NCBI GenBank assembly: GCA_964373915.1
Contig: CAYJWP010000001.1
Location: 51,860-115,859 of the forward strand
Reading direction: 5' to 3'
DNA from: an uncultured Candidatus Saccharibacteria bacterium
Lineage (GTDB): Bacteria; Patescibacteriota; Minisyncoccia; UBA6257; UBA11618
DNA length: 64,000 nt
Part shown: piece by piece, positions 17,453-26,642 of the stretch
Layout of the letters: each line of letters begins with the position of its first letter
Position numbering within the stretch: position 1 is the first letter of the stretch
Translations under genes and position numbers: made by a program
The notes under the pieces: model-generated
Told to the model about the DNA's origin: nothing
What the model saw: the letters and a program-made list of their open reading frames with translations, nothing else
Database searches by the model: none

Positions 17453-18592
17453 GTGGATAAGTTTGCTCGGTACGACATCTTTTTTTACGGAGTGGCAATG
17501 TTTCTAGCCGGAGTTTTGCTTTCTAGTTTAGGCATAAGTTTTTGGATTATTGCCGGCCTGGTAATTTTTTTAGCTTTAGCTTCCCGAATGTCATCTTTAA
17601 GCCCGTTGCTGATATTAGTTTTAGCCGGCTCTCTTTATTACTCATGGCGCATCTCTATGCCTCTGGAAATCTCTTTTGGCAAAGAAATTTTTGGATGGCT
17701 TTTAAACATTAAAGAGGGGATTATTGAGGCGCATCGGCGGCTCTTAGGCTCGGAGCAAGCGGCTTTTTTATCCGGCATTACCATCGGCCATCGTTATGGA
17801 TTTTCTCAAAATTTTCTGGAACGGCTTTCTTTAAGCGGCACCCGCCACGTAGTAGTGCTTTCGGGCTCTAATCTTACAATTCTCATTCTTATAATTATGC
17901 GGCTCCGCAGCTCTTTTCTTTCAAAAAAGTTTGCTTTTGCCCTTTCTTTTTTAACCGTTCTGGCCCTTGTGGCTATGACCGGCTTTGAAGTTTCCGCCGT
18001 GCGCGCCTCCTTAATGGCTTTTGTTTTCGGTATAGCCACTCAAAGCGAGCGCCTTTACAGCCCCCGTAATTCTATAGCTCTGGCAGGTTTAATTTTAATT
18101 CTCGTCAATCCTCAAAACCTTGTTTTTGATATCGGCTTCCAGCTTTCCTTTATGGCTATTCTTGGAGTAGCCTATATTTTACCTGCTTTAAAAAACGCTC
18201 TGCGGATAAAAACTTTTGGCGGGCTTGATTGGCGTGAAGCGGCCCTTGGAACAATCGCCGCCCAAACAGCAGTCGCGCCTATTTTAATCGCTAACTTCTC
18301 TAACTTCACTTTGACATCCTTTATCGCTAACGCTCTTATTTTGGCGGTGGTGCCGCCAACAATGATTGTTGGTTTTATTCTGGCGCTAGCCTACTGGCTG
18401 TTTTATCCGGCGGCGATTGTTTTAAGCTGGCTGGCGTCTTTCTTGCTCGGTTATCAGATTTTTGTTATAAATATTTTTTCTCGGATTTATCTGCCCTTTA
18501 ATCCTGATTTAGGATTTTTAGGAATCGCTATTTATTACGCCGTTGTTTTTATTTTTATCGCCAAGTTTTATGGAAAAAGAGCCGAATTATAA
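17453..18592 (+). CDS. comEC: ComEC/Rec2 DNA-internalization competence protein, membrane competence domain
   Basis: Multi-TM protein. 'LSGITIGHRYGFSQNFLERLSLSGTRHVVVLSGSNLTIL' matches the ComEC competence-domain signature. Confidence 0.8.
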   Translation: MDKFARYDIFFYGVAMFLAGVLLSSLGISFWIIAGLVIFLALASRMSSLSPLLILVLAGSLYYSWRISMPLEISFGKEIFGWLLNIKEGIIEAHRRLLGSEQAAFLSGITIGHRYGFSQNFLERLSLSGTRHVVVLSGSNLTILILIIMRLRSSFLSKKFAFALSFLTVLALVAMTGFEVSAVRASLMAFVFGIATQSERLYSPRNSIALAGLILILVNPQNLVFDIGFQLSFMAILGVAYILPALKNALRIKTFGGLDWREAALGTIAAQTAVAPILIANFSNFTLTSFIANALILAVVPPTMIVGFILALAYWLFYPAAIVLSWLASFLLGYQIFVINIFSRIYLPFNPDLGFLGIAIYYAVVFIFIAKFYGKRAEL

Positions 18593-19403
18593 AATTTATT
18601 TTTATTTTACTCTTATTATCCTTGCCGGCTTTAACCTATGGTTGTGGCGAGCCGTATTTTTTTCTAGTGGAGACATCAAACCGGCGGTTTATTTTTTTAA
18701 TGTAGGGCAAGGCGACAGCCAACTGATTGCCTTGCCGCCGGTTAACATTCTCATTGATGGAGGGAGAGGAAAAAGAGTTTTAGGAGAATTGGACAAAGTC
18801 TTCAGCGAGTTCAATGGCAAATATATTGATTTAGTAATTGCTACCCATGCCGATATTGACCATTTTGGCGGTCTCAGGGAGGTTGTGAAAAATTATCAAG
18901 TAGGCGCTTTTTTATTTAACGGCAAAGCCAGCAATAATTCCGCTTATTTAGAATTAGTATCGTTAGTAAATAGGGCGGGTATTCCCATTATCAATCTAGC
19001 CGCCAAAGATAAAATAAAATACAACAATGATTATCTAGCCGTTCTTTCTCCGGAAGCTAAAGAAATTTTTTATAACGATGATAATAATTCCAGCTTGGTT
19101 TTAATGTTGAACGCGGGCGGAGAAAAAGCCCTTTTTACTGGAGATATCAGTCTTAAAACTGAGGATAAATTAGCGAGCCGTTACGATTTAACCGCTGATA
19201 TTCTCAAGGTTTCCCATCACGGTTCCAAAAACTCATCCGGCGCTAATTTCTTAAATGATGTTTTGCCTAGAATTAGCGTTATCGGAGTTGGCAGAAACAG
19301 CTACGGCCATCCCCATCCTCTAACTATTGAACGTCTGCAAAAAGCCGGCTCTAAAATCTTTAGAACCGACACGGACGGCGCCATTAAAATTGTTTTAGAT
19401 TAA
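18570..19403 (+). CDS. ComEC C-terminal metallo-beta-lactamase domain protein (separate gene)
   Basis: MBL motifs 'VGQGDS', 'ATHADIDHFGG' (HxHxDH), 'KVSHHGS'. Start taken at ATG 18570 (MEKEPNY...). Overlaps the upstream comEC by about 23 nt. Confidence 0.8.
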   Translation: MEKEPNYKIYFYFTLIILAGFNLWLWRAVFFSSGDIKPAVYFFNVGQGDSQLIALPPVNILIDGGRGKRVLGELDKVFSEFNGKYIDLVIATHADIDHFGGLREVVKNYQVGAFLFNGKASNNSAYLELVSLVNRAGIPIINLAAKDKIKYNNDYLAVLSPEAKEIFYNDDNNSSLVLMLNAGGEKALFTGDISLKTEDKLASRYDLTADILKVSHHGSKNSSGANFLNDVLPRISVIGVGRNSYGHPHPLTIERLQKAGSKIFRTDTDGAIKIVLD

Positions 19404-19409
19404 TTACTT

Positions 19410-20381
19410 ATGAATCGCTGGTTAAAAATATTAATTATTTTGGCGGCTGCCGCCCTGTTTATCCAGGCCTCTGTTTATCTGGCTGTCAATCGGCGAGAGG
19501 CGGGGGAATTGGCGGCGCCCAGCCAGTTTAAAGAGTTGCATCTGGCGGATATTTCTAAAGAAACTAAACCGCCGTCAAAACTGGCAAACTTTCGCCTCTG
19601 TTCTTTTCAGACAAACTCTTTGCCATCCCATCAAGGAGCGGTTTTTAGCAGGATTGCCTGGGCGGGCTCCAGCGAGAACGCCAATGATGAGTGGTTTGAG
19701 ATAAAAAAAATATCAGCGGGGGAGATTAATATTTCCGGCTGGCAGGCTGTTAACAAGAACGAAAGATTAAAAGCGGTGGTCGCTCAAGAAACATTTTTAA
19801 CTGAAAGCAATCCCCTCTATCTCTTGAAAAGAAGCGTCCATTACACAGGGGCGCTGAAAAACAACAACGAAGGACTCCGGCTCTTTGATAAGAATTGCCA
19901 GCTTATTGATGAAGTTTTTGCTGATTCTGATTGGCCGGCAGGGGATAACGAATTAAAACTGGTGATGAAAAGAGCCGGGGACTTATCTTGGTATGATGAC
20001 AGAATAATTCCAGCTTCCCAGCAGGCCCAGAATATAAATAACGGCGCCGCTTCTGTCGTTATTTATGAAATTCAAGCCGGTTCCGAAGTATCCACGAATA
20101 ATGAATATATAAAACTGCGCAATCTCACCGAACAAACTATTAGTTTGGATGGCTGGTCATTAAAGAAAAAGACAGCTTCCGGTAAAGAATATACCCTGGT
20201 TTCTAGCTCAAAATTTACCGGATTGATAACGGCTCAAGGTTTTTTTGTTATTGCCCACAAAGATTATGAAGGCGAGGCAAATTTAAGATACTCCAACACT
20301 TCTAATTCTTTGGCTAATTCCAACAATACAGCAATTATTTACAATAAGAGCGGAAATTTAATCAGCGAGTTTAAGTATTAA
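19410..20381 (+). CDS. lamin-tail-domain (LTD) protein, two LTD copies, signal-anchored
   Basis: 'ANDEWFEIKKISAGEINISGWQ' and 'NNEYIKLRNLTEQTISLDGWSL' match the LTD signature (NE[WY][IV]E[IL]xN ... GW). Immediately downstream of comEC, as is common. Confidence 0.7.
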   Translation: MNRWLKILIILAAAALFIQASVYLAVNRREAGELAAPSQFKELHLADISKETKPPSKLANFRLCSFQTNSLPSHQGAVFSRIAWAGSSENANDEWFEIKKISAGEINISGWQAVNKNERLKAVVAQETFLTESNPLYLLKRSVHYTGALKNNNEGLRLFDKNCQLIDEVFADSDWPAGDNELKLVMKRAGDLSWYDDRIIPASQQAQNINNGAASVVIYEIQAGSEVSTNNEYIKLRNLTEQTISLDGWSLKKKTASGKEYTLVSSSKFTGLITAQGFFVIAHKDYEGEANLRYSNTSNSLANSNNTAIIYNKSGNLISEFKY

Positions 20382-20800
20382 TTATTATAAGTAAGCTCCA
20401 CTCGATCTTTATCTTTCATTAAATAATCGCCAAACTCCGGAGCTTCTTTGCCGTTTACCAGCATTTTTAAATCATTTTTATCTAACTCTTCCCCCCAAAT
20501 CTCAAAAAACTTGGCAAGTTTTGTGTCTTCTTTTCTTACCAATCCGGAAAATTCCATATGGATGGTGCCGTCCGTTTCATGAGTGTGCATTTGTTGGTGC
20601 ACCACTCCCAATCCGATGCCGGCTGGTATCACTCTCGGCACCCCTTTATCGGTGATAGAGAGTTTAGGATGCCAATGTATGCCGTTTTTTGAGACGATAT
20701 CTTCCTCTGGAATAGGCGGGATATTAACCAGATACCAAATAAACCAGCCAACACCCCCCAAAACAATCACCGCCAATAAAACCTTGATAAAAAATCTCAT
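20378..20800 (-). CDS. hypothetical membrane-anchored His-rich protein (paralog of 26079-26642)
   Basis: N-terminal TM, then 'GIHWHP...IPAGIGLG...HTHETDGTIHMEF...FFEIWGEEL'. Last gene of the DsbA/VKOR-like operon. Confidence 0.5.
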   Translation of the reverse strand: MRFFIKVLLAVIVLGGVGWFIWYLVNIPPIPEEDIVSKNGIHWHPKLSITDKGVPRVIPAGIGLGVVHQQMHTHETDGTIHMEFSGLVRKEDTKLAKFFEIWGEELDKNDLKMLVNGKEAPEFGDYLMKDKDRVELTYNN

Positions 20801-20804
20801 ATTT

Positions 20805-21362
20805 TTAATTTAGATTATTATTAATGTTACAAACTTGCAGATTATTAATTTTTTTTGCTGTAAAAATAATTGATGTGCCTAGAATGCCCACGCTCAGCAA
20901 GCCGAACTCACCGCCATTGAGCGGCAGAACATAGATTAGTCCGCCGGCGCCGATTAAAGCTAGTAACGGCCCCAGAACTAATGTGCCGCAAGCGGCGCAA
21001 CCGACGCCAAAGACGCCGCTGACAAAACCCGCTAGACTGCCGGTCACGCCGCTCCTTATAGGCGCGCTTTTTTTCTGCCTCATATAATAAACAACCATAG
21101 CCGTATTAATGCCCAGTAAAACTGCAATCGCTACAGTGTAAGAGGCAGAAAGGGCGGTAAAATTCGTTCCGATGGACGTCATCAAGTTGGCCAAAAAAAT
21201 AACTTTTTCGGAAAAAACCACCATTGGGGAGCTTGTTATCTGCCAGATAAGTCCTAAATTGGGTAACCAAGTGGATAGCGCGAGCATTAACAAAGCAACC
21301 AACGCGGCTAGCGCCAGATAGGTGGCTTTTCTGAAAACCTTATTCAACGCCGAAAAAAGCAT
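20805..21362 (-). CDS. integral membrane protein with an intramembrane CxxC (VKOR/DsbB-like thiol-oxidoreductase partner, inferred)
   Basis: Four to five TM helices. 'GVFGVGCAACGTLVLG' (C-A-A-C) inside a TM helix. Directly downstream of a DsbA-like thioredoxin gene. Confidence 0.45.
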   Translation of the reverse strand: MLFSALNKVFRKATYLALAALVALLMLALSTWLPNLGLIWQITSSPMVVFSEKVIFLANLMTSIGTNFTALSASYTVAIAVLLGINTAMVVYYMRQKKSAPIRSGVTGSLAGFVSGVFGVGCAACGTLVLGPLLALIGAGGLIYVLPLNGGEFGLLSVGILGTSIIFTAKKINNLQVCNINNNLN

Positions 21363-21367
21363 CAGGT

Positions 21368-22090
21368 CTATTTCTCTTTTAGCGCCAACTCAACAACTTG
21401 CCTGATCGCTTCATAGGGCTGAGCGCCGTTGACAGGAAATTTTTTACCGTTAGAGGCAACAACAATACTCCACGGTGTGCCATTGCCGCCGGTAGCTATC
21501 GCGTCTTGCGCATCAGCCTCAATGTGGCCGGCAAACTTACCGCCCTTACTATCATTATCTTTAACCAATTTTTCAAAAGGAACGGGATTAAGCCCGACAT
21601 CTTTGGCTATTTGTACCAATTGAGAAAGTTCTAACTGGTCATTAGATGGCGTAATCTCAAATAACCTGTCTAAATAAGCCCAGAACTTGTCATTACCGCC
21701 CAATTCGCCTGCCAACTCCGCAGCCGCCGCCTCCATGCGGGCTTTGGAATGCAGCTGGTCAAGAGGGAAATGGCGGTAGACCCAAGCCACTTTGCCGTTG
21801 TATTCCTTAACTATTTGCTGGAGAGTCGGGTGAATTCTCTTGCAGAACGGGCACTCGGTATCGGAAAACTCCACTATTTTCACCGGAGCTTTTGAATCGC
21901 CTTTGATATGGTCTTTGCCGGTTATCGGTTTCAAATCATCAAGATTGCCCGTTGGCGGAGGTTCTTGGGGTAAAGCCCCAAGATTAGCTGAGGAACGGCC
22001 GACAGAATACACCACCGCCCCCGAAATAAGCACTCCCGCTATCAAAATTGATATGGGGAGAAAATAATTTCTCTTTTGTTGATTTTCCAT
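21368..22090 (-). CDS. DsbA-family thiol:disulfide oxidoreductase (thioredoxin fold)
   Basis: Active site 'ECPFCKRIHP' (CPFC), signal-anchor N-terminus, thioredoxin-like length. Start taken at internal ATG 22090 (MENQQ...). Confidence 0.8.
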   Translation of the reverse strand: MENQQKRNYFLPISILIAGVLISGAVVYSVGRSSANLGALPQEPPPTGNLDDLKPITGKDHIKGDSKAPVKIVEFSDTECPFCKRIHPTLQQIVKEYNGKVAWVYRHFPLDQLHSKARMEAAAAELAGELGGNDKFWAYLDRLFEITPSNDQLELSQLVQIAKDVGLNPVPFEKLVKDNDSKGGKFAGHIEADAQDAIATGGNGTPWSIVVASNGKKFPVNGAQPYEAIRQVVELALKEK

Positions 22091-22146
22091 TTTGATTTTG
22101 ATGTTAATTTTTATATTATGACTTTTAAAATACCAGCTTATCAAAA

Positions 22147-22509
22147 TTAAGCTAAATTGTACAACCGGCTATGCATAATGCCTTGGCTCAATAAATTACG
22201 AAGCGGGTTAAACAACTTTGAAATTAATTCTTTTTCCCTTGATTGTTTTGCTGGTAATAACTTAAAAATTTTATTTTTTAATTTTTCTTGGTAAAAATAA
22301 AGATTAGTAACCAATAAAAATAATAGGCCAATTATACCAAACAACAAAAACTGATTTTTTGAAGAAATTAAATTAATCGGCGCCAGTTTAAAGAGGCAAG
22401 CCGAATGTTCGGTGCTGATATTTTGTCCAACTGGCTGCAAAAAAGCGCAAAAAGCAACTATTACCAATACAGAAATAAATATGCTTAGAAGTAAGTGATT
22501 ATTAGCCAT
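22147..22509 (-). CDS. hypothetical small membrane protein
   Basis: Two hydrophobic segments. First gene of the minus-strand operon ahead of the dsbA-like gene. Confidence 0.4.
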   Translation of the reverse strand: MANNHLLLSIFISVLVIVAFCAFLQPVGQNISTEHSACLFKLAPINLISSKNQFLLFGIIGLLFLLVTNLYFYQEKLKNKIFKLLPAKQSREKELISKLFNPLRNLLSQGIMHSRLYNLA

Positions 22510-23839: not shown

Positions 23840-23866
23840 AAAACCCCGACGCTGTCGGGGTTTTTT
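23840..23866. terminator. bidirectional rho-independent terminator
   Basis: 'AAAACCCCGACGCTGTCGGGGTTTTTT'. The T-tract overlaps the stop codon of the convergent minus-strand gene. Confidence 0.75.
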
Positions 23867-24152
23867 AAAGGCCAACCTTATCTTTAATACGCTTGATGTC
23901 TTTCTGCATCTCAGCAACCTCCGCTTTTAAGTCAGGATAACAAGCTACCCTGTCTTCTATGCCATCAAGTCGATAGTTAATAGAAATAATCTCTTTTCTT
24001 ATTTCTTTTACTTCTGCTCTTATTTCTTTTACTTCTGCTCTTATTTCTTTAACCCCCCCCTCTATTTTATCAAGTCTTTTATTGGTAACAGAAAACTCAC
24101 TCTGAATCATTATTGCTAAACCATTAATTGTCATGCCTTTATTTTTTATCAT
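23865..24152 (-). CDS. small coiled-coil protein with in-frame 21-bp tandem repeats (heptad 'AEVKEIR' x ~3) and a G8 homopolymer
   Basis: 'EIRAEVKEIRAEVKEIRKEI' encoded by 2.5 copies of 'CTTATTTCTTTTACTTCTGCT' (23998-24050). A C8 run on the plus strand at 24053-24060 encodes 'GGV'. Confidence 0.5.
   Translation of the reverse strand: MIKNKGMTINGLAIMIQSEFSVTNKRLDKIEGGVKEIRAEVKEIRAEVKEIRKEIISINYRLDGIEDRVACYPDLKAEVAEMQKDIKRIKDKVGL
23998..24050. repeat. 21-bp tandem repeat, about 2.5 copies, inside a CDS
   Basis: Direct repeat visible in the sequence. Confidence 0.8.
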
Positions 24153-25824: not shown

Positions 25825-25977
25825 GACAACTTTAGAATAAGGAAATAGCTTCTGATTAATTCTTTGACTACTTTCTCATCTTCACCATTGCCCTGTATTT
25901 GATGTTTGACGTGAGAGAGCAAGTGACTTTCGAGAAGGAATACCCCATATTCTATTTGTCAAACAACTGCTCTGTAG

Positions 25978-26048
25978 CTGCGGGACTAGGGCTCGAACCT
26001 AGATTACTTGATTCAGAGTCAAGCGTCCTACCATTAGACGATCCCGCA
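25978..26048 (-). tRNA. tRNA-Gln (anticodon CTG)
   Basis: Minus strand. Acceptor TGCGGGA/TCCCGCA, D-arm GTCT-AATGGTA-GGAC, anticodon stem CTTGA/TCAAG with loop CTCTGAA, T-arm CTAGG-TTCGAGC-CCTAG. Confidence 0.85.
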
Positions 26049-26078: not shown

Positions 26079-26642
26079 ATGAAAACCAAGATTATTTTAA
26101 TATTAATAATCGTCGTCTTATTGGCCGGCGGTCTATTCTGGGCCTTTAATAATATACAAAAAAATAAAGAAGAAATTTCCGCCGAGGACCAAGAATTAAG
26201 CGAGGAAGAATTAGTTAATCTTGAAAAATTACTAGGATCGTTGGACGCCGGCCGTGAGCCAGGCACCTCACCTTTTCCCGGTGTTGAATGTTTGGAGGAC
26301 CACTTATTTGCGGAAAGACACATCCACACTTGGCTGGCTATTTTAGTGGATGGTGTTCGCGAGACTATTCCTGCCGATATTGGCATTACCGACAATTGTA
26401 TGGCCGAACTTCATACCCATGCCGACTCGGGACGGATTCATATAGAATCGGTTAAACCCGACATTGAATTCAATCTGGGAGACTTTTTCAGAGTTTGGGG
26501 CGAGCCTTTGGAGAGAAAGGGATACAACCTGCAAATGTCTGTTAAACCGCCCTCTAGTGAAGAGTTTCAATCAAGCTCAGAGTTAGCGGACTTTAAACTC
26601 AAAAACGAGTACCAAATAATCTTAAACTATGCTAAAAAATAG
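26079..26642 (+). CDS. hypothetical membrane-anchored His-rich protein (paralog of 20378-20800)
   Basis: 'RHIHTW...IPADIGIT...ELHTHADSGRIHIE...FFRVWGEPL' aligns with the 20378-20800 product. Confidence 0.5.
   Translation: MKTKIILILIIVVLLAGGLFWAFNNIQKNKEEISAEDQELSEEELVNLEKLLGSLDAGREPGTSPFPGVECLEDHLFAERHIHTWLAILVDGVRETIPADIGITDNCMAELHTHADSGRIHIESVKPDIEFNLGDFFRVWGEPLERKGYNLQMSVKPPSSEEFQSSSELADFKLKNEYQIILNYAKK

What the first reader, a model, noticed from the sequence alone, without database searches (positions are those of the whole stretch)
20378..22509. DsbA / intramembrane-CxxC (VKOR- or DsbB-like) operon carrying a His-rich membrane-anchored protein with a paralog at 26079-26642
The minus-strand operon encodes a 120-aa membrane protein, a DsbA-like thioredoxin ('CPFC'), a polytopic membrane protein with C-A-A-C inside a TM helix, and a 140-aa anchored protein with 'HWHP...IPAGIG...HTHETDGTIHMEF...FFEIWGE'. 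A second gene (26079-26642, plus strand, next to tRNA-Gln(CTG)) encodes a clearly paralogous protein ('HIHTW...IPADIG...HTHADSGRIHIE...FFRVWGE'). The conserved His cluster suggests a metal- or heme-binding extracytoplasmic domain coupled to the oxidative-folding machinery. I do not recognise the family.
Basis: seen in the sequence. Interest (0 to 1): 0.5.

Follow-up and report, generated by a model that had tools for sequence, protein, structure and literature searches.

The report
DsbA, novel CxxC partner, His-rich protein
A small operon of a Patescibacteria-like bacterium pairs a disulfide-forming enzyme (DsbA) with a previously undescribed membrane partner and an undescribed histidine-rich surface protein that most likely binds copper. 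This raises the question of how bacteria without a respiratory chain run oxidative protein folding.

Summary
Four tightly packed minus-strand genes (22509-20378) encode a 2-TM protein, a membrane-anchored DsbA (CPFC), a polytopic protein with GCAACG, and an anchored His-rich protein. The gene at 26079-26642 is a true paralog of the last one (BLASTP E=7e-10; profile E=2.4e-17).

All four genes form a conserved Patescibacterial module. DsbA lies directly upstream of the CAAC protein in 62/62 informative metagenome loci. The His protein follows in 21/50.

The CAAC family has no Pfam or NCBIfam model and no detectable homology to DsbB, VKOR, CcdA or DsbD_2. Its predicted topology puts the CxxC inside TM3 and a third invariant Cys in the cytoplasm, which is not the DsbB/VKOR arrangement.

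The His family is large (3,603 50%-identity clusters) and unannotated. It has a beta-grasp fold with near-invariant HxH, HTH and HxE motifs.

About 60% of related loci carry copper genes: CPC and CPH P1B-ATPases, CsoR-type repressors, multicopper oxidases and cupredoxins. Some family members are fused to T1Cu or CuA cupredoxins, thioredoxin repeats or rhodanese.

Best reading: a DsbA oxidase, a non-homologous stand-in for DsbB, and an extracytoplasmic copper-binding accessory. The redox direction, the electron acceptor and the metal remain untested.

The parts
22147..22509 (-). First gene of the operon. A 120-aa two-TM protein, a diverged member of a conserved family with a '...F-N-x-L-K-x-A-F-x-x-G-I-L-N-P-K-I-Y' C-terminus that sits directly upstream of DsbA.
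   Evidence: ORF. A profile built from 33 upstream neighbours of DsbA-CAAC pairs hits only this ORF among 225 window ORFs (E=1.7e-4), aligning the second TM and the C-terminal motif. The family is present in 42/80 CAAC-seeded loci. No Pfam family.
21368..22144 (-). Membrane-anchored DsbA-type thiol:disulfide oxidoreductase. Active site CPFC, Thr-cisPro loop 'GTPW'. The probable true start is the ATG at 22090.
   Evidence: Pfam Thioredoxin_4 3.9e-17 and DSBA 1.6e-13. The closest solved relatives are oxidases: PaDsbA2 (4N30, also CPFC, E=1.7e-13), BdbD and C. diphtheriae DsbA. ScsC-type proteins score only about 1e-4. PaDsbA2 is highly oxidising and is reoxidised by DsbB (PMC3870256).
20805..21362 (-). 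185-aa polytopic membrane protein, the obligate DsbA partner, from an unannotated family. Invariant residues: WLPN, TNF, G-x-G-C-A-A-C, LP-x-x-G-x-EFG and C178.
20378..20800 (-). 140-aa protein: N-terminal TM anchor plus an extracytoplasmic beta-grasp domain with putative metal ligands H42, H44, H72, H74, H81 and E83. It has no cysteines.
26079..26642 (+). 187-aa paralog of the His-rich protein. TM anchor, longer linker, the same six ligand positions, plus a Cys pair (C70, C106) conserved in its subfamily. It lies outside the operon, next to tRNA-Gln(CTG) and fmt/def.
   Evidence: BLASTP E=7e-10. Profile E=2.4e-17. The word-indexed search found only 3 close relatives. The Cys pair and ligands align with P0309, P0310 and the Polaromonas homolog.

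Best explanation
The operon is a conserved envelope module of Patescibacteria with four parts.
1. A small 2-TM protein.
2. A membrane-anchored DsbA-type thiol oxidase (CPFC) that introduces disulfides into exported proteins.
3. Its dedicated membrane redox partner. This is a new 4-TM family with a CxxC buried in TM3 and a third invariant Cys on the cytoplasmic side. It takes the place that DsbB or VKOR holds elsewhere but is not homologous to them. I infer that it recycles DsbA, with an unknown electron acceptor.
4. A membrane-anchored beta-grasp domain whose N-terminal extension (HWH) and insert (HTH...HxE) build a His5-Glu metal site, most likely for copper.

In most relatives the module sits inside copper-homeostasis islands. 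I therefore infer that the His protein captures or buffers copper at the outer face of the membrane, for example copper released by P1B-ATPases. That would protect or service the neighbouring thiol-disulfide machinery and cuproproteins.

Shown here: gene content, conservation, synteny, fold, fusions, and lack of homology to known partners.
Inferred: redox direction, topology, copper as the ligand, and the functional coupling.
For: - Obligate pairing: DsbA is directly upstream of CAAC in 62/62 loci. His is downstream in 21/50. The 2-TM family is upstream in 42/80.
- The DsbA's nearest solved relatives are oxidases. PaDsbA2 has the same CPFC and Thr-cisPro (PMC3870256).
- Some of the same islands (10/80 loci) also carry a separate CcdA, flanked in the loci inspected by a ~220-aa protein I read by eye as thioredoxin/AhpC-like (not Pfam-checked). 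DsbA-CAAC is therefore probably not the reducing pathway.
- The His family is huge and its six ligand candidates are conserved across phyla.
- The beta-grasp model is confident.
- Copper context: 21/35 His-seeded and 26/43 CAAC-seeded loci of at least 6 kb carry a copper marker. These include CPC/YN/MxxSS+HMA CopA and CPH+HMBD CopB-type ATPases, CsoR-family repressors, multicopper oxidases, DUF305 and cupredoxins.
- Fusions of the His domain: complete T1Cu and CuA-motif cupredoxins, HMBD, rhodanese, and three thioredoxin-like CxxC repeats.
- A distant homolog in Mycolicibacterium lies in a cluster with a CPC/HMA P1B-1 ATPase, about 2.5 kb downstream of it, with TauE/SafE, HMA and two hypothetical genes between. 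A Streptomyces homolog follows a MerR regulator and a P-type ATPase.
Against: - This window has no copper gene within 64 kb.
- No biochemical data exist for any member.
- I could not inspect model coordinates, so the 3-D clustering of the His residues is inferred from strand periodicity only.
- The CAAC model is low-confidence exactly at the CxxC.
- A cytoplasmic invariant Cys and an intramembrane CxxC resemble electron-importing relays (CcdA/DsbD) more than DsbB/VKOR.
- Patescibacteria lack complete electron-transport chains (PMC7507113), so no acceptor is evident for an oxidative pathway.
- The regulator that usually follows the module has a C-H-H fingerprint (RcnR-like) rather than the Cu(I)-type C-H-C. 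A His-rich site would also suit Ni, Co or Zn.
- Many related loci come from a few samples, so the counts overstate independence.
Confidence: 0.5

Rival explanations
1. Reductive or isomerase pathway, Scs/CcdA-like. CAAC carries electrons from cytoplasmic thioredoxin, via C178 and the intramembrane CxxC, to the DsbA-fold protein. That protein then reduces or reshuffles copper-damaged disulfides, as ScsB-ScsC or DsbD-DsbC do.
For: - Predicted cytoplasmic invariant Cys and mid-membrane CxxC.
- Positively charged linker plus an extra TM after the module in fused relatives.
- Copper-island context.
- DsbA-fold ScsC proteins act in copper resistance (papers listed).
- Patescibacteria lack complete ETCs.
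Against: - The closest characterised relatives of the DsbA are oxidases, not ScsC.
- CPFC with Thr-cisPro matches the highly oxidising PaDsbA2.
- Some of the same islands carry a separate CcdA with an apparently thioredoxin-like neighbour.
- No homology to CcdA or DsbD_2.
Confidence: 0.25
2. The His domain holds a redox-active copper centre that serves as the terminal electron sink for DsbA/CAAC. This would be a quinone-independent route for de novo disulfide formation, with electrons passing on to O2, a cupredoxin or a multicopper oxidase.
For: - Fusions of the His domain to electron-transfer cupredoxins (T1Cu, CuA) and to thioredoxin-like CxxC repeats.
- HxH motifs on strands, as in multicopper clusters (own knowledge).
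- Absence of complete ETCs in the phylum.
- Conserved DsbA-CAAC-His order.
Against: - Only about 42% of DsbA-CAAC pairs have an adjacent His gene.
- The His family also occurs with CopA alone, and in Actinobacteria and Proteobacteria, which typically have DsbB or VKOR (own knowledge).
- No direct evidence of redox activity.
Confidence: 0.15
3. The His site binds another ligand: Ni, Co or Zn, or a tetrapyrrole or corrinoid as in SLBB/transcobalamin-type beta-grasp domains.
For: - An all-His/Glu ligand set.
- C-H-H (RcnR-like) regulators next to the module.
- A CDF transporter and an ArsR regulator lie nearby in Mycolicibacterium.
Against: - All identifiable ATPases in Patescibacterial loci are copper types, CPC/MxxSS or CPH.
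- Cupredoxin fusions and multicopper oxidase neighbours.
Confidence: 0.15
4. CAAC is a thiophilic-metal conduit of MerT/MerF logic. A DsbA-fold protein acts as metallochaperone, handing Cu(I) to the intramembrane CxxC and then to the cytoplasmic Cys.
For: - The arrangement of an outer thioredoxin-fold CxxC, an intramembrane CxxC and a cytoplasmic Cys.
- Copper islands.
- ScsC binds Cu(I) tightly (PMC8900818, listed).
Against: - The DsbA is a typical oxidase-class DsbA.
- The pair is near-universal, including in loci without copper genes such as this window.
- Copper import would run against co-located exporters.
Confidence: 0.07

Closest known systems
DsbA-DsbB / DsbA-VKOR / BdbD-BdbC oxidative folding pairs
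   Same: A DsbA-class oxidoreductase is encoded next to a small 4-TM membrane protein with a CxxC. The pairing is as strict as in known dsbA-dsbB or bdbDC operons (62/62).
   Different: - No sequence or profile similarity to DsbB or VKOR.
- Only one CxxC, with no extracytoplasmic loop Cys pair.
- A third invariant Cys is predicted to be cytoplasmic.
- The host phylum lacks complete electron-transport chains, so the usual quinone acceptor is doubtful.
CcdA / DsbD / ScsB transmembrane electron relays, and the Scs copper-sensitivity system
   Same: Cysteines inside the membrane, a link to the cytoplasm, and association with copper stress genes and DsbA-fold partners.
   Different: - Not homologous (hhalign below 1%).
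- 4 TM rather than 6-8.
- Both Cys are in one helix as a CxxC, rather than one Cys in each pseudo-repeat.
- The partner DsbA resembles oxidases.
Extracytoplasmic copper-binding accessory proteins (CopC/PcoC, PCuAC, CusF, YcnI, CopL)
   Same: Small, exported or anchored, encoded in copper operons next to P1B-ATPases, CsoR and multicopper oxidases. Some are fused to cupredoxins.
   Different: - Different fold (beta-grasp).
- Different ligand signature (HxH + HTH + HxE, no Met or Cys).
- No Pfam or NCBIfam model.
- Metal binding is untested.
Beta-grasp superfamily (ThiS/MoaD, SLBB/transcobalamin beta-domain, DUF4430 3u7z)
   Different: - Extracytoplasmic and membrane-anchored.
- No C-terminal Gly-Gly.
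- The His/Glu ligands lie in an N-terminal extension and a roughly 30-aa insert absent from those families.

Membership tests
DsbA (Pfam DSBA / Thioredoxin_4), gene 21368-22144 | Thioredoxin fold with CxxC active site | tested here: met
   Thioredoxin_4 E=3.9e-17; CPFC present.
DsbA (Pfam DSBA / Thioredoxin_4), gene 21368-22144 | Inserted helical domain and cis-Pro loop | tested here: met
   The DSBA model matches residues 90-249 end to end. 'GTPW' is a Thr-cisPro loop. The protein aligns full-length to BdbD and C. diphtheriae DsbA.
DsbA (Pfam DSBA / Thioredoxin_4), gene 21368-22144 | Oxidising redox potential / oxidase activity in vivo | not testable with these tools
   Only by analogy to PaDsbA2 (4N30), which shares CPFC.
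DsbB (PF02600), gene 20805-21362 | Sequence homology to DsbB | tested here: not met
   No Pfam or NCBIfam hit at E<=1. hhalign of the family profile versus E. coli DsbB gives probability 0.25%. No PDB sequence hit.
DsbB (PF02600), gene 20805-21362 | Two extracytoplasmic Cys pairs (CxxC in loop 1, second pair in loop 2) | tested here: not met
   Only three conserved Cys: C122 and C125 in TM3, and C178 after TM4 on the K/R-rich (cytoplasmic) side.
DsbB (PF02600), gene 20805-21362 | Four TM helices, N- and C-termini cytoplasmic | tested here: met
   Hydropathy and positive-inside analysis of 30 sequences. This is a prediction only.
VKOR (PF07884), gene 20805-21362 | Sequence homology, loop Cys pair, and CxxC at the start of the last core TM | tested here: not met
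   No Pfam hit and no loop Cys pair. The CxxC lies at the N-terminus of a predicted helix (123-144), but that region of the model has pLDDT below 50.
CcdA / DsbD_TM / DsbD_2, gene 20805-21362 | Homology; six-TM pseudo-symmetric core with one Cys in each half | tested here: not met
   No Pfam hit. hhalign versus CcdA and DsbD_2 alignments from neighbouring genes gives probability below 1%. 4 TM with both Cys in one helix.
Beta-grasp fold (ThiS/MoaD/SLBB), gene 20378-20800 | Beta-grasp topology | tested here: met
ThiS/MoaD sulfur carriers, gene 20378-20800 | Cytoplasmic protein ending in Gly-Gly | tested here: not met
   N-terminal TM anchor; the C-terminus is '...ELTYNN'.
Known periplasmic copper chaperones (CopC, PCuAC, CusF, YcnI/DUF1775), gene 20378-20800 | Sequence membership | tested here: not met
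   No Pfam hit at E<=1 for the window proteins. At E<=1e-3, none of 148 family representatives hits any of these families.
Metal-binding protein (generic), genes 20378-20800 and 26079-26642 | Demonstrated metal binding at the conserved His/Glu positions | not testable with these tools
   Inferred from invariant ligands, copper context and fusions.

The most novel reading that the evidence does not exclude
Patescibacteria lack complete electron-transport chains. They may make disulfide bonds with a quinone-independent system, in which DsbA is recycled by the new intramembrane-CxxC protein and electrons are finally dumped on a protein-bound copper centre (the His5-Glu beta-grasp domain, sometimes wired to a cupredoxin) or passed across the membrane through the cytoplasmic Cys. 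That would be a third, non-homologous solution to de novo disulfide generation, beside DsbB and VKOR.
Probability: 0.15. Interest if true: 0.9.

Novelty: new variant of a known kind. Interest (0 to 1): 0.62.

Why it matters
How DsbA is re-oxidised in organisms without complete electron-transport chains is an open question. A membrane partner that accompanies DsbA in every informative locus (62/62), yet is unrelated to DsbB and VKOR, gives a concrete and testable candidate.

The His-rich beta-grasp family is very large (thousands of 50%-identity clusters), spans several phyla and is unannotated. It sits in copper-export islands, so it may be a missing extracytoplasmic component of bacterial copper handling.

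Both families are small and easy to express. Both have clear mutational targets: C122/C125/C178, and H42/H44/H72/H74/H81/E83.

Tried and rejected
- Sequence searches of PDB with both proteins and both family profiles found nothing relevant.
- The Foldseek AFDB50 library was unavailable.
- hhalign of the CAAC profile against CcdA, DsbD_2, MauE and E. coli DsbB showed no relationship.
- The first genome scan with the full His alignment failed for lack of a conserved stretch. It was repeated with a narrower alignment, which limits the hits to close Patescibacterial relatives.
- Looked for copper genes in the window itself: none.
- The promoter/terminator scan gave nothing above the shuffled background. 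One TTGCAA-17-CATAAT site lies 28 nt upstream of the first gene.
- Rfam found only the four tRNAs.
- Eight literature searches (seven for a description of either family, one for PDB entry 4N30) found no description of either family or of Dsb systems in Patescibacteria.
- Considered that the His protein is merely a DsbA substrate. Rejected for the operon copy, which has no cysteine. This remains possible for the paralog, which has a conserved Cys pair.
- Considered heme binding. There is no CxxCH motif or other supporting evidence, and the context points to copper.
Full report
**1. Observation**

The operon genes are separated by 2, 5 and 4 nt. tRNA-Gln(CTG) lies at 25977-26048, next to the paralog. 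The DsbA ORF as listed starts at a TTG (22144). The ATG at 22090, 'MENQQKRNYF...', precedes the TM anchor and is the more plausible start.

Pfam confirms the DsbA (Thioredoxin_4 3.9e-17, DSBA 1.6e-13). It gives no family for the other three proteins or for the paralog, and neither does NCBIfam. The two His-rich proteins are paralogs. BLASTP gives E=7e-10, and a family profile that excludes the paralog gives E=2.4e-17.

**2. The His-rich family**

A word-indexed search found 39 relatives. An exhaustive profile search found 3,603 50%-identity clusters at E<=1e-3 and 1,946 at E<=1e-10.

H42, H44, G63, H72, H74, H81 and E83 are invariant in the first alignment. Across 148 representatives H42, G63 and H72 are invariant and the others are at least 90% conserved. 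They are also kept in distant plasmid-borne homologs from Streptomyces, Mycolicibacterium and Polaromonas, all annotated 'hypothetical protein'.

Reading the sequence against the secondary structure gives this layout. The hairpin 'LSITDKG-VPRVIP', the helix 'DTKLAKFFEIWG' and the C-terminal 'KMLVNG...RVELTY' form the ThiS-like core. H42 and H44 sit on an N-terminal extra strand. H72, H74, H81 and E83 sit in a roughly 30-residue insert between strand 2 and the helix. The putative metal site is therefore a family-specific elaboration of the fold. I could not access coordinates, so spatial clustering of the ligands is an inference.

**3. The CAAC membrane family**

There are at least 379 relatives, none with a Pfam domain. 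The few that carry a source name are from Patescibacteria or environmental metagenomes. Invariant residues are W32-L-P-N35, T66-N-F68, G119-x-G-C-A-A-C125, L146-P, G150-x-E-F-G154 and C178.

Positive-inside analysis of 30 sequences gives these mean K+R counts: N-terminus 2.5, loop 2 4.0, C-terminus 3.1, loop 3 0.1. That supports four TM segments with both termini inside, CAAC within a 39-residue Gly-rich TM3, and C178 in the cytoplasm.

Two relatives (L004, L010) fuse a CPVC variant of this module, through a strongly basic linker and one further TM, to an extracytoplasmic Cys-rich domain. This agrees with a cytoplasmic C-terminus of the module.

**4. Synteny**

I seeded one search with the CAAC family in metagenomes, which gave 80 loci.
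- DsbA lies immediately upstream on the same strand in 62 of the 62 loci that have at least 700 nt of upstream sequence. The gap is usually 2 nt.
- The His gene lies within 1.5 kb downstream in 21 of the 50 loci with enough downstream sequence.
- A Cys-rich protein of about 190 aa with no Pfam model is inserted between CAAC and His in 15 loci.
- The gene upstream of DsbA is usually a 2-TM protein of about 140 aa ending in '...LKLAFARGILNPKIY'. A profile of that family picks out the window's 120-aa ORF as its only hit among 225 window ORFs (E=1.7e-4), aligned over the second TM and the C-terminal motif.

All four genes of the finding therefore belong to one conserved module.

I seeded a second search with the His family in species-representative genomes. 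This gave 39 loci, most with Patescibacteria-lineage titles, although several MAG records are titled Gammaproteobacteria, Paracoccaceae, archaeon or simply 'bacterium'. The DsbA-CAAC-His order recurs in about nine of them. In other loci the His gene follows CsoR-CopA directly.

**5. Copper context**

Neighbours checked with Pfam include the following:
- a P1B-ATPase with an HMA domain;
- a CsoR-type repressor (PF02583);
- an HMA-DsbD_2 protein;
- cupredoxin-like proteins;
- DUF305;
- a multicopper oxidase fused to MauE;
- CcdA.

The ATPases are of two copper types. One has CPC + YN + MxxSS with an HMA domain. The other has CPH with an N-terminal HMBD or His-rich region.

The CsoR-family regulators also split in two. 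The C-H-C type lies next to CPC CopA. A 90-aa C-H-H type usually lies right after the DsbA-CAAC-His module.

At least one copper marker lies within the fetched flanks in 21/35 His-seeded and 26/43 CAAC-seeded loci of at least 6 kb. The window itself has none in 64 kb.

Domain fusions in the His family:
- complete type-1 copper cupredoxins (H...C...H...M);
- CuA-motif cupredoxins (C-x3-C-x3-H-x2-M);
- an HMBD domain;
- rhodanese (two cases);
- N-terminal C2H2 zinc fingers (six cases);
- in L036, three thioredoxin-like CxxC repeats.

In Mycolicibacterium the homolog lies in the same cluster as a CPC/HMA/MxxSS ATPase, about 2.5 kb downstream. In Streptomyces it follows a MerR regulator and a P-type ATPase.

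**6. Direction of the redox pair**

For an oxidative role:
- The nearest solved relatives of the DsbA are oxidases: PaDsbA2 (4N30, E=1.7e-13), BdbD and C. diphtheriae DsbA. ScsC proteins score about 1e-4.
- PaDsbA2 has the same CPFC and Thr-cisPro, is highly oxidising, and is reoxidised by DsbB with quinone (PMC3870256).
- Some islands (10/80 loci) also hold a separate CcdA, flanked in the loci inspected by a thioredoxin-like protein (by eye).

For a reductive role:
- The predicted cytoplasmic Cys and the buried CxxC.

I favour the oxidative reading. CAAC would then be a non-homologous functional stand-in for DsbB/VKOR, with an unknown acceptor. The reductive Scs/CcdA-like reading remains a serious rival.

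**7. Role of the His domain**

The family's broadest association is with copper exporters. That includes loci and phyla without the CAAC protein. The adjacent His gene is present in fewer than half of the DsbA-CAAC loci.

The best-supported role is therefore an extracytoplasmic copper-binding accessory: a buffer, an acceptor or a chaperone. It is recruited to the Dsb module in Patescibacteria.

The cupredoxin and thioredoxin fusions leave open a redox-active copper centre that accepts electrons from the Dsb pair. This is the most novel reading that my evidence does not exclude.

**8. Novelty**

None of the searched libraries (Pfam 2025, NCBIfam 2026, PDB) models either family. RefSeq labels the distant His homologs 'hypothetical protein'. 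Eight full-text searches found no description of either family.

The system is of a known kind, namely DsbA plus a membrane partner in a copper-homeostasis neighbourhood, but two of its components are non-homologous and undescribed. I classify it as a new variant of a known kind.

**9. Caveats**

- Many metagenome loci come from a few samples and are not independent.
- The genome scan used a narrow peptide pattern, so it is biased towards close Patescibacterial relatives.
- Topology, metal identity and redox direction are all predictions.
- I infer the source organism of the window only from its closest homologs (Wildermuthbacteria and other Patescibacteria).

Noticed in passing
L015:505-2541 (also L063, L064, L089, L092, L094): Patescibacterial copper islands encode a multicopper oxidase fused to an N-terminal MauE/DoxX-like membrane domain (Pfam MauE 3.6e-16 plus Cu-oxidase_2/_3). 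I do not know this architecture to have been described. It is intriguing in a phylum without complete respiratory chains.
   Followed up: partly
L047:9755-10027, L079:6254-6526, L108:6198-6470 versus L006:3326-3631, L108:788-1072: There are two classes of CsoR-family repressors. The C-H-C (Cu(I)-type) class lies next to CPC CopA. A 90-aa C-H-H (RcnR-like fingerprint) class usually lies directly after the DsbA-CAAC-His module or next to CPH ATPases. Its effector is unknown.
   Followed up: partly
L080:5557-6132, L014:1011-1646 (15 of 80 CAAC-seeded loci): A Cys-rich anchored protein of about 190 aa ('...CCSPMD...CCCKCWRW...CGG') with no Pfam model is often inserted between the CAAC and His genes. 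It is absent from the window.
   Followed up: partly
L020:3948-4820, L080:9171-10169; fused in L004:2620-3906 and L010:2017-3480: Another unannotated extracytoplasmic domain ('RPCCxNSTHFPDCNHGMAMLGLLELMASQG', C-terminal GCG) occurs alone or fused C-terminally to a CPVC variant of the CAAC membrane module.
   Followed up: partly
window 20378-20800: The database copy of this protein (P0001, 127 aa, 91% coverage) starts 13 codons later than the ATG ORF. That start truncates the N-terminal TM anchor that homologs have, so the public gene call is probably too short.
   Followed up: no
window 23865-24152 (-): A 95-aa ORF contains a perfect heptad repeat, 'EVKEIRA EVKEIRA EVKEIRK', which suggests a coiled-coil. 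Its function is unknown.
   Followed up: no
window 17453-19403 (+): Two overlapping ORFs (379 aa polytopic, 286 aa) look by eye like the membrane (ComEC/Rec2) and metallo-beta-lactamase parts of ComEC, but neither was checked against Pfam. They are split into separate frames, which could be a frameshift or a genuine split gene.
   Followed up: no
P0020, P0036, P0249, P0286 (His-family members): Six of 148 representatives carry an N-terminal, presumably cytoplasmic, C2H2-type zinc finger before the TM anchor. This hints that some members could signal across the membrane.
   Followed up: no
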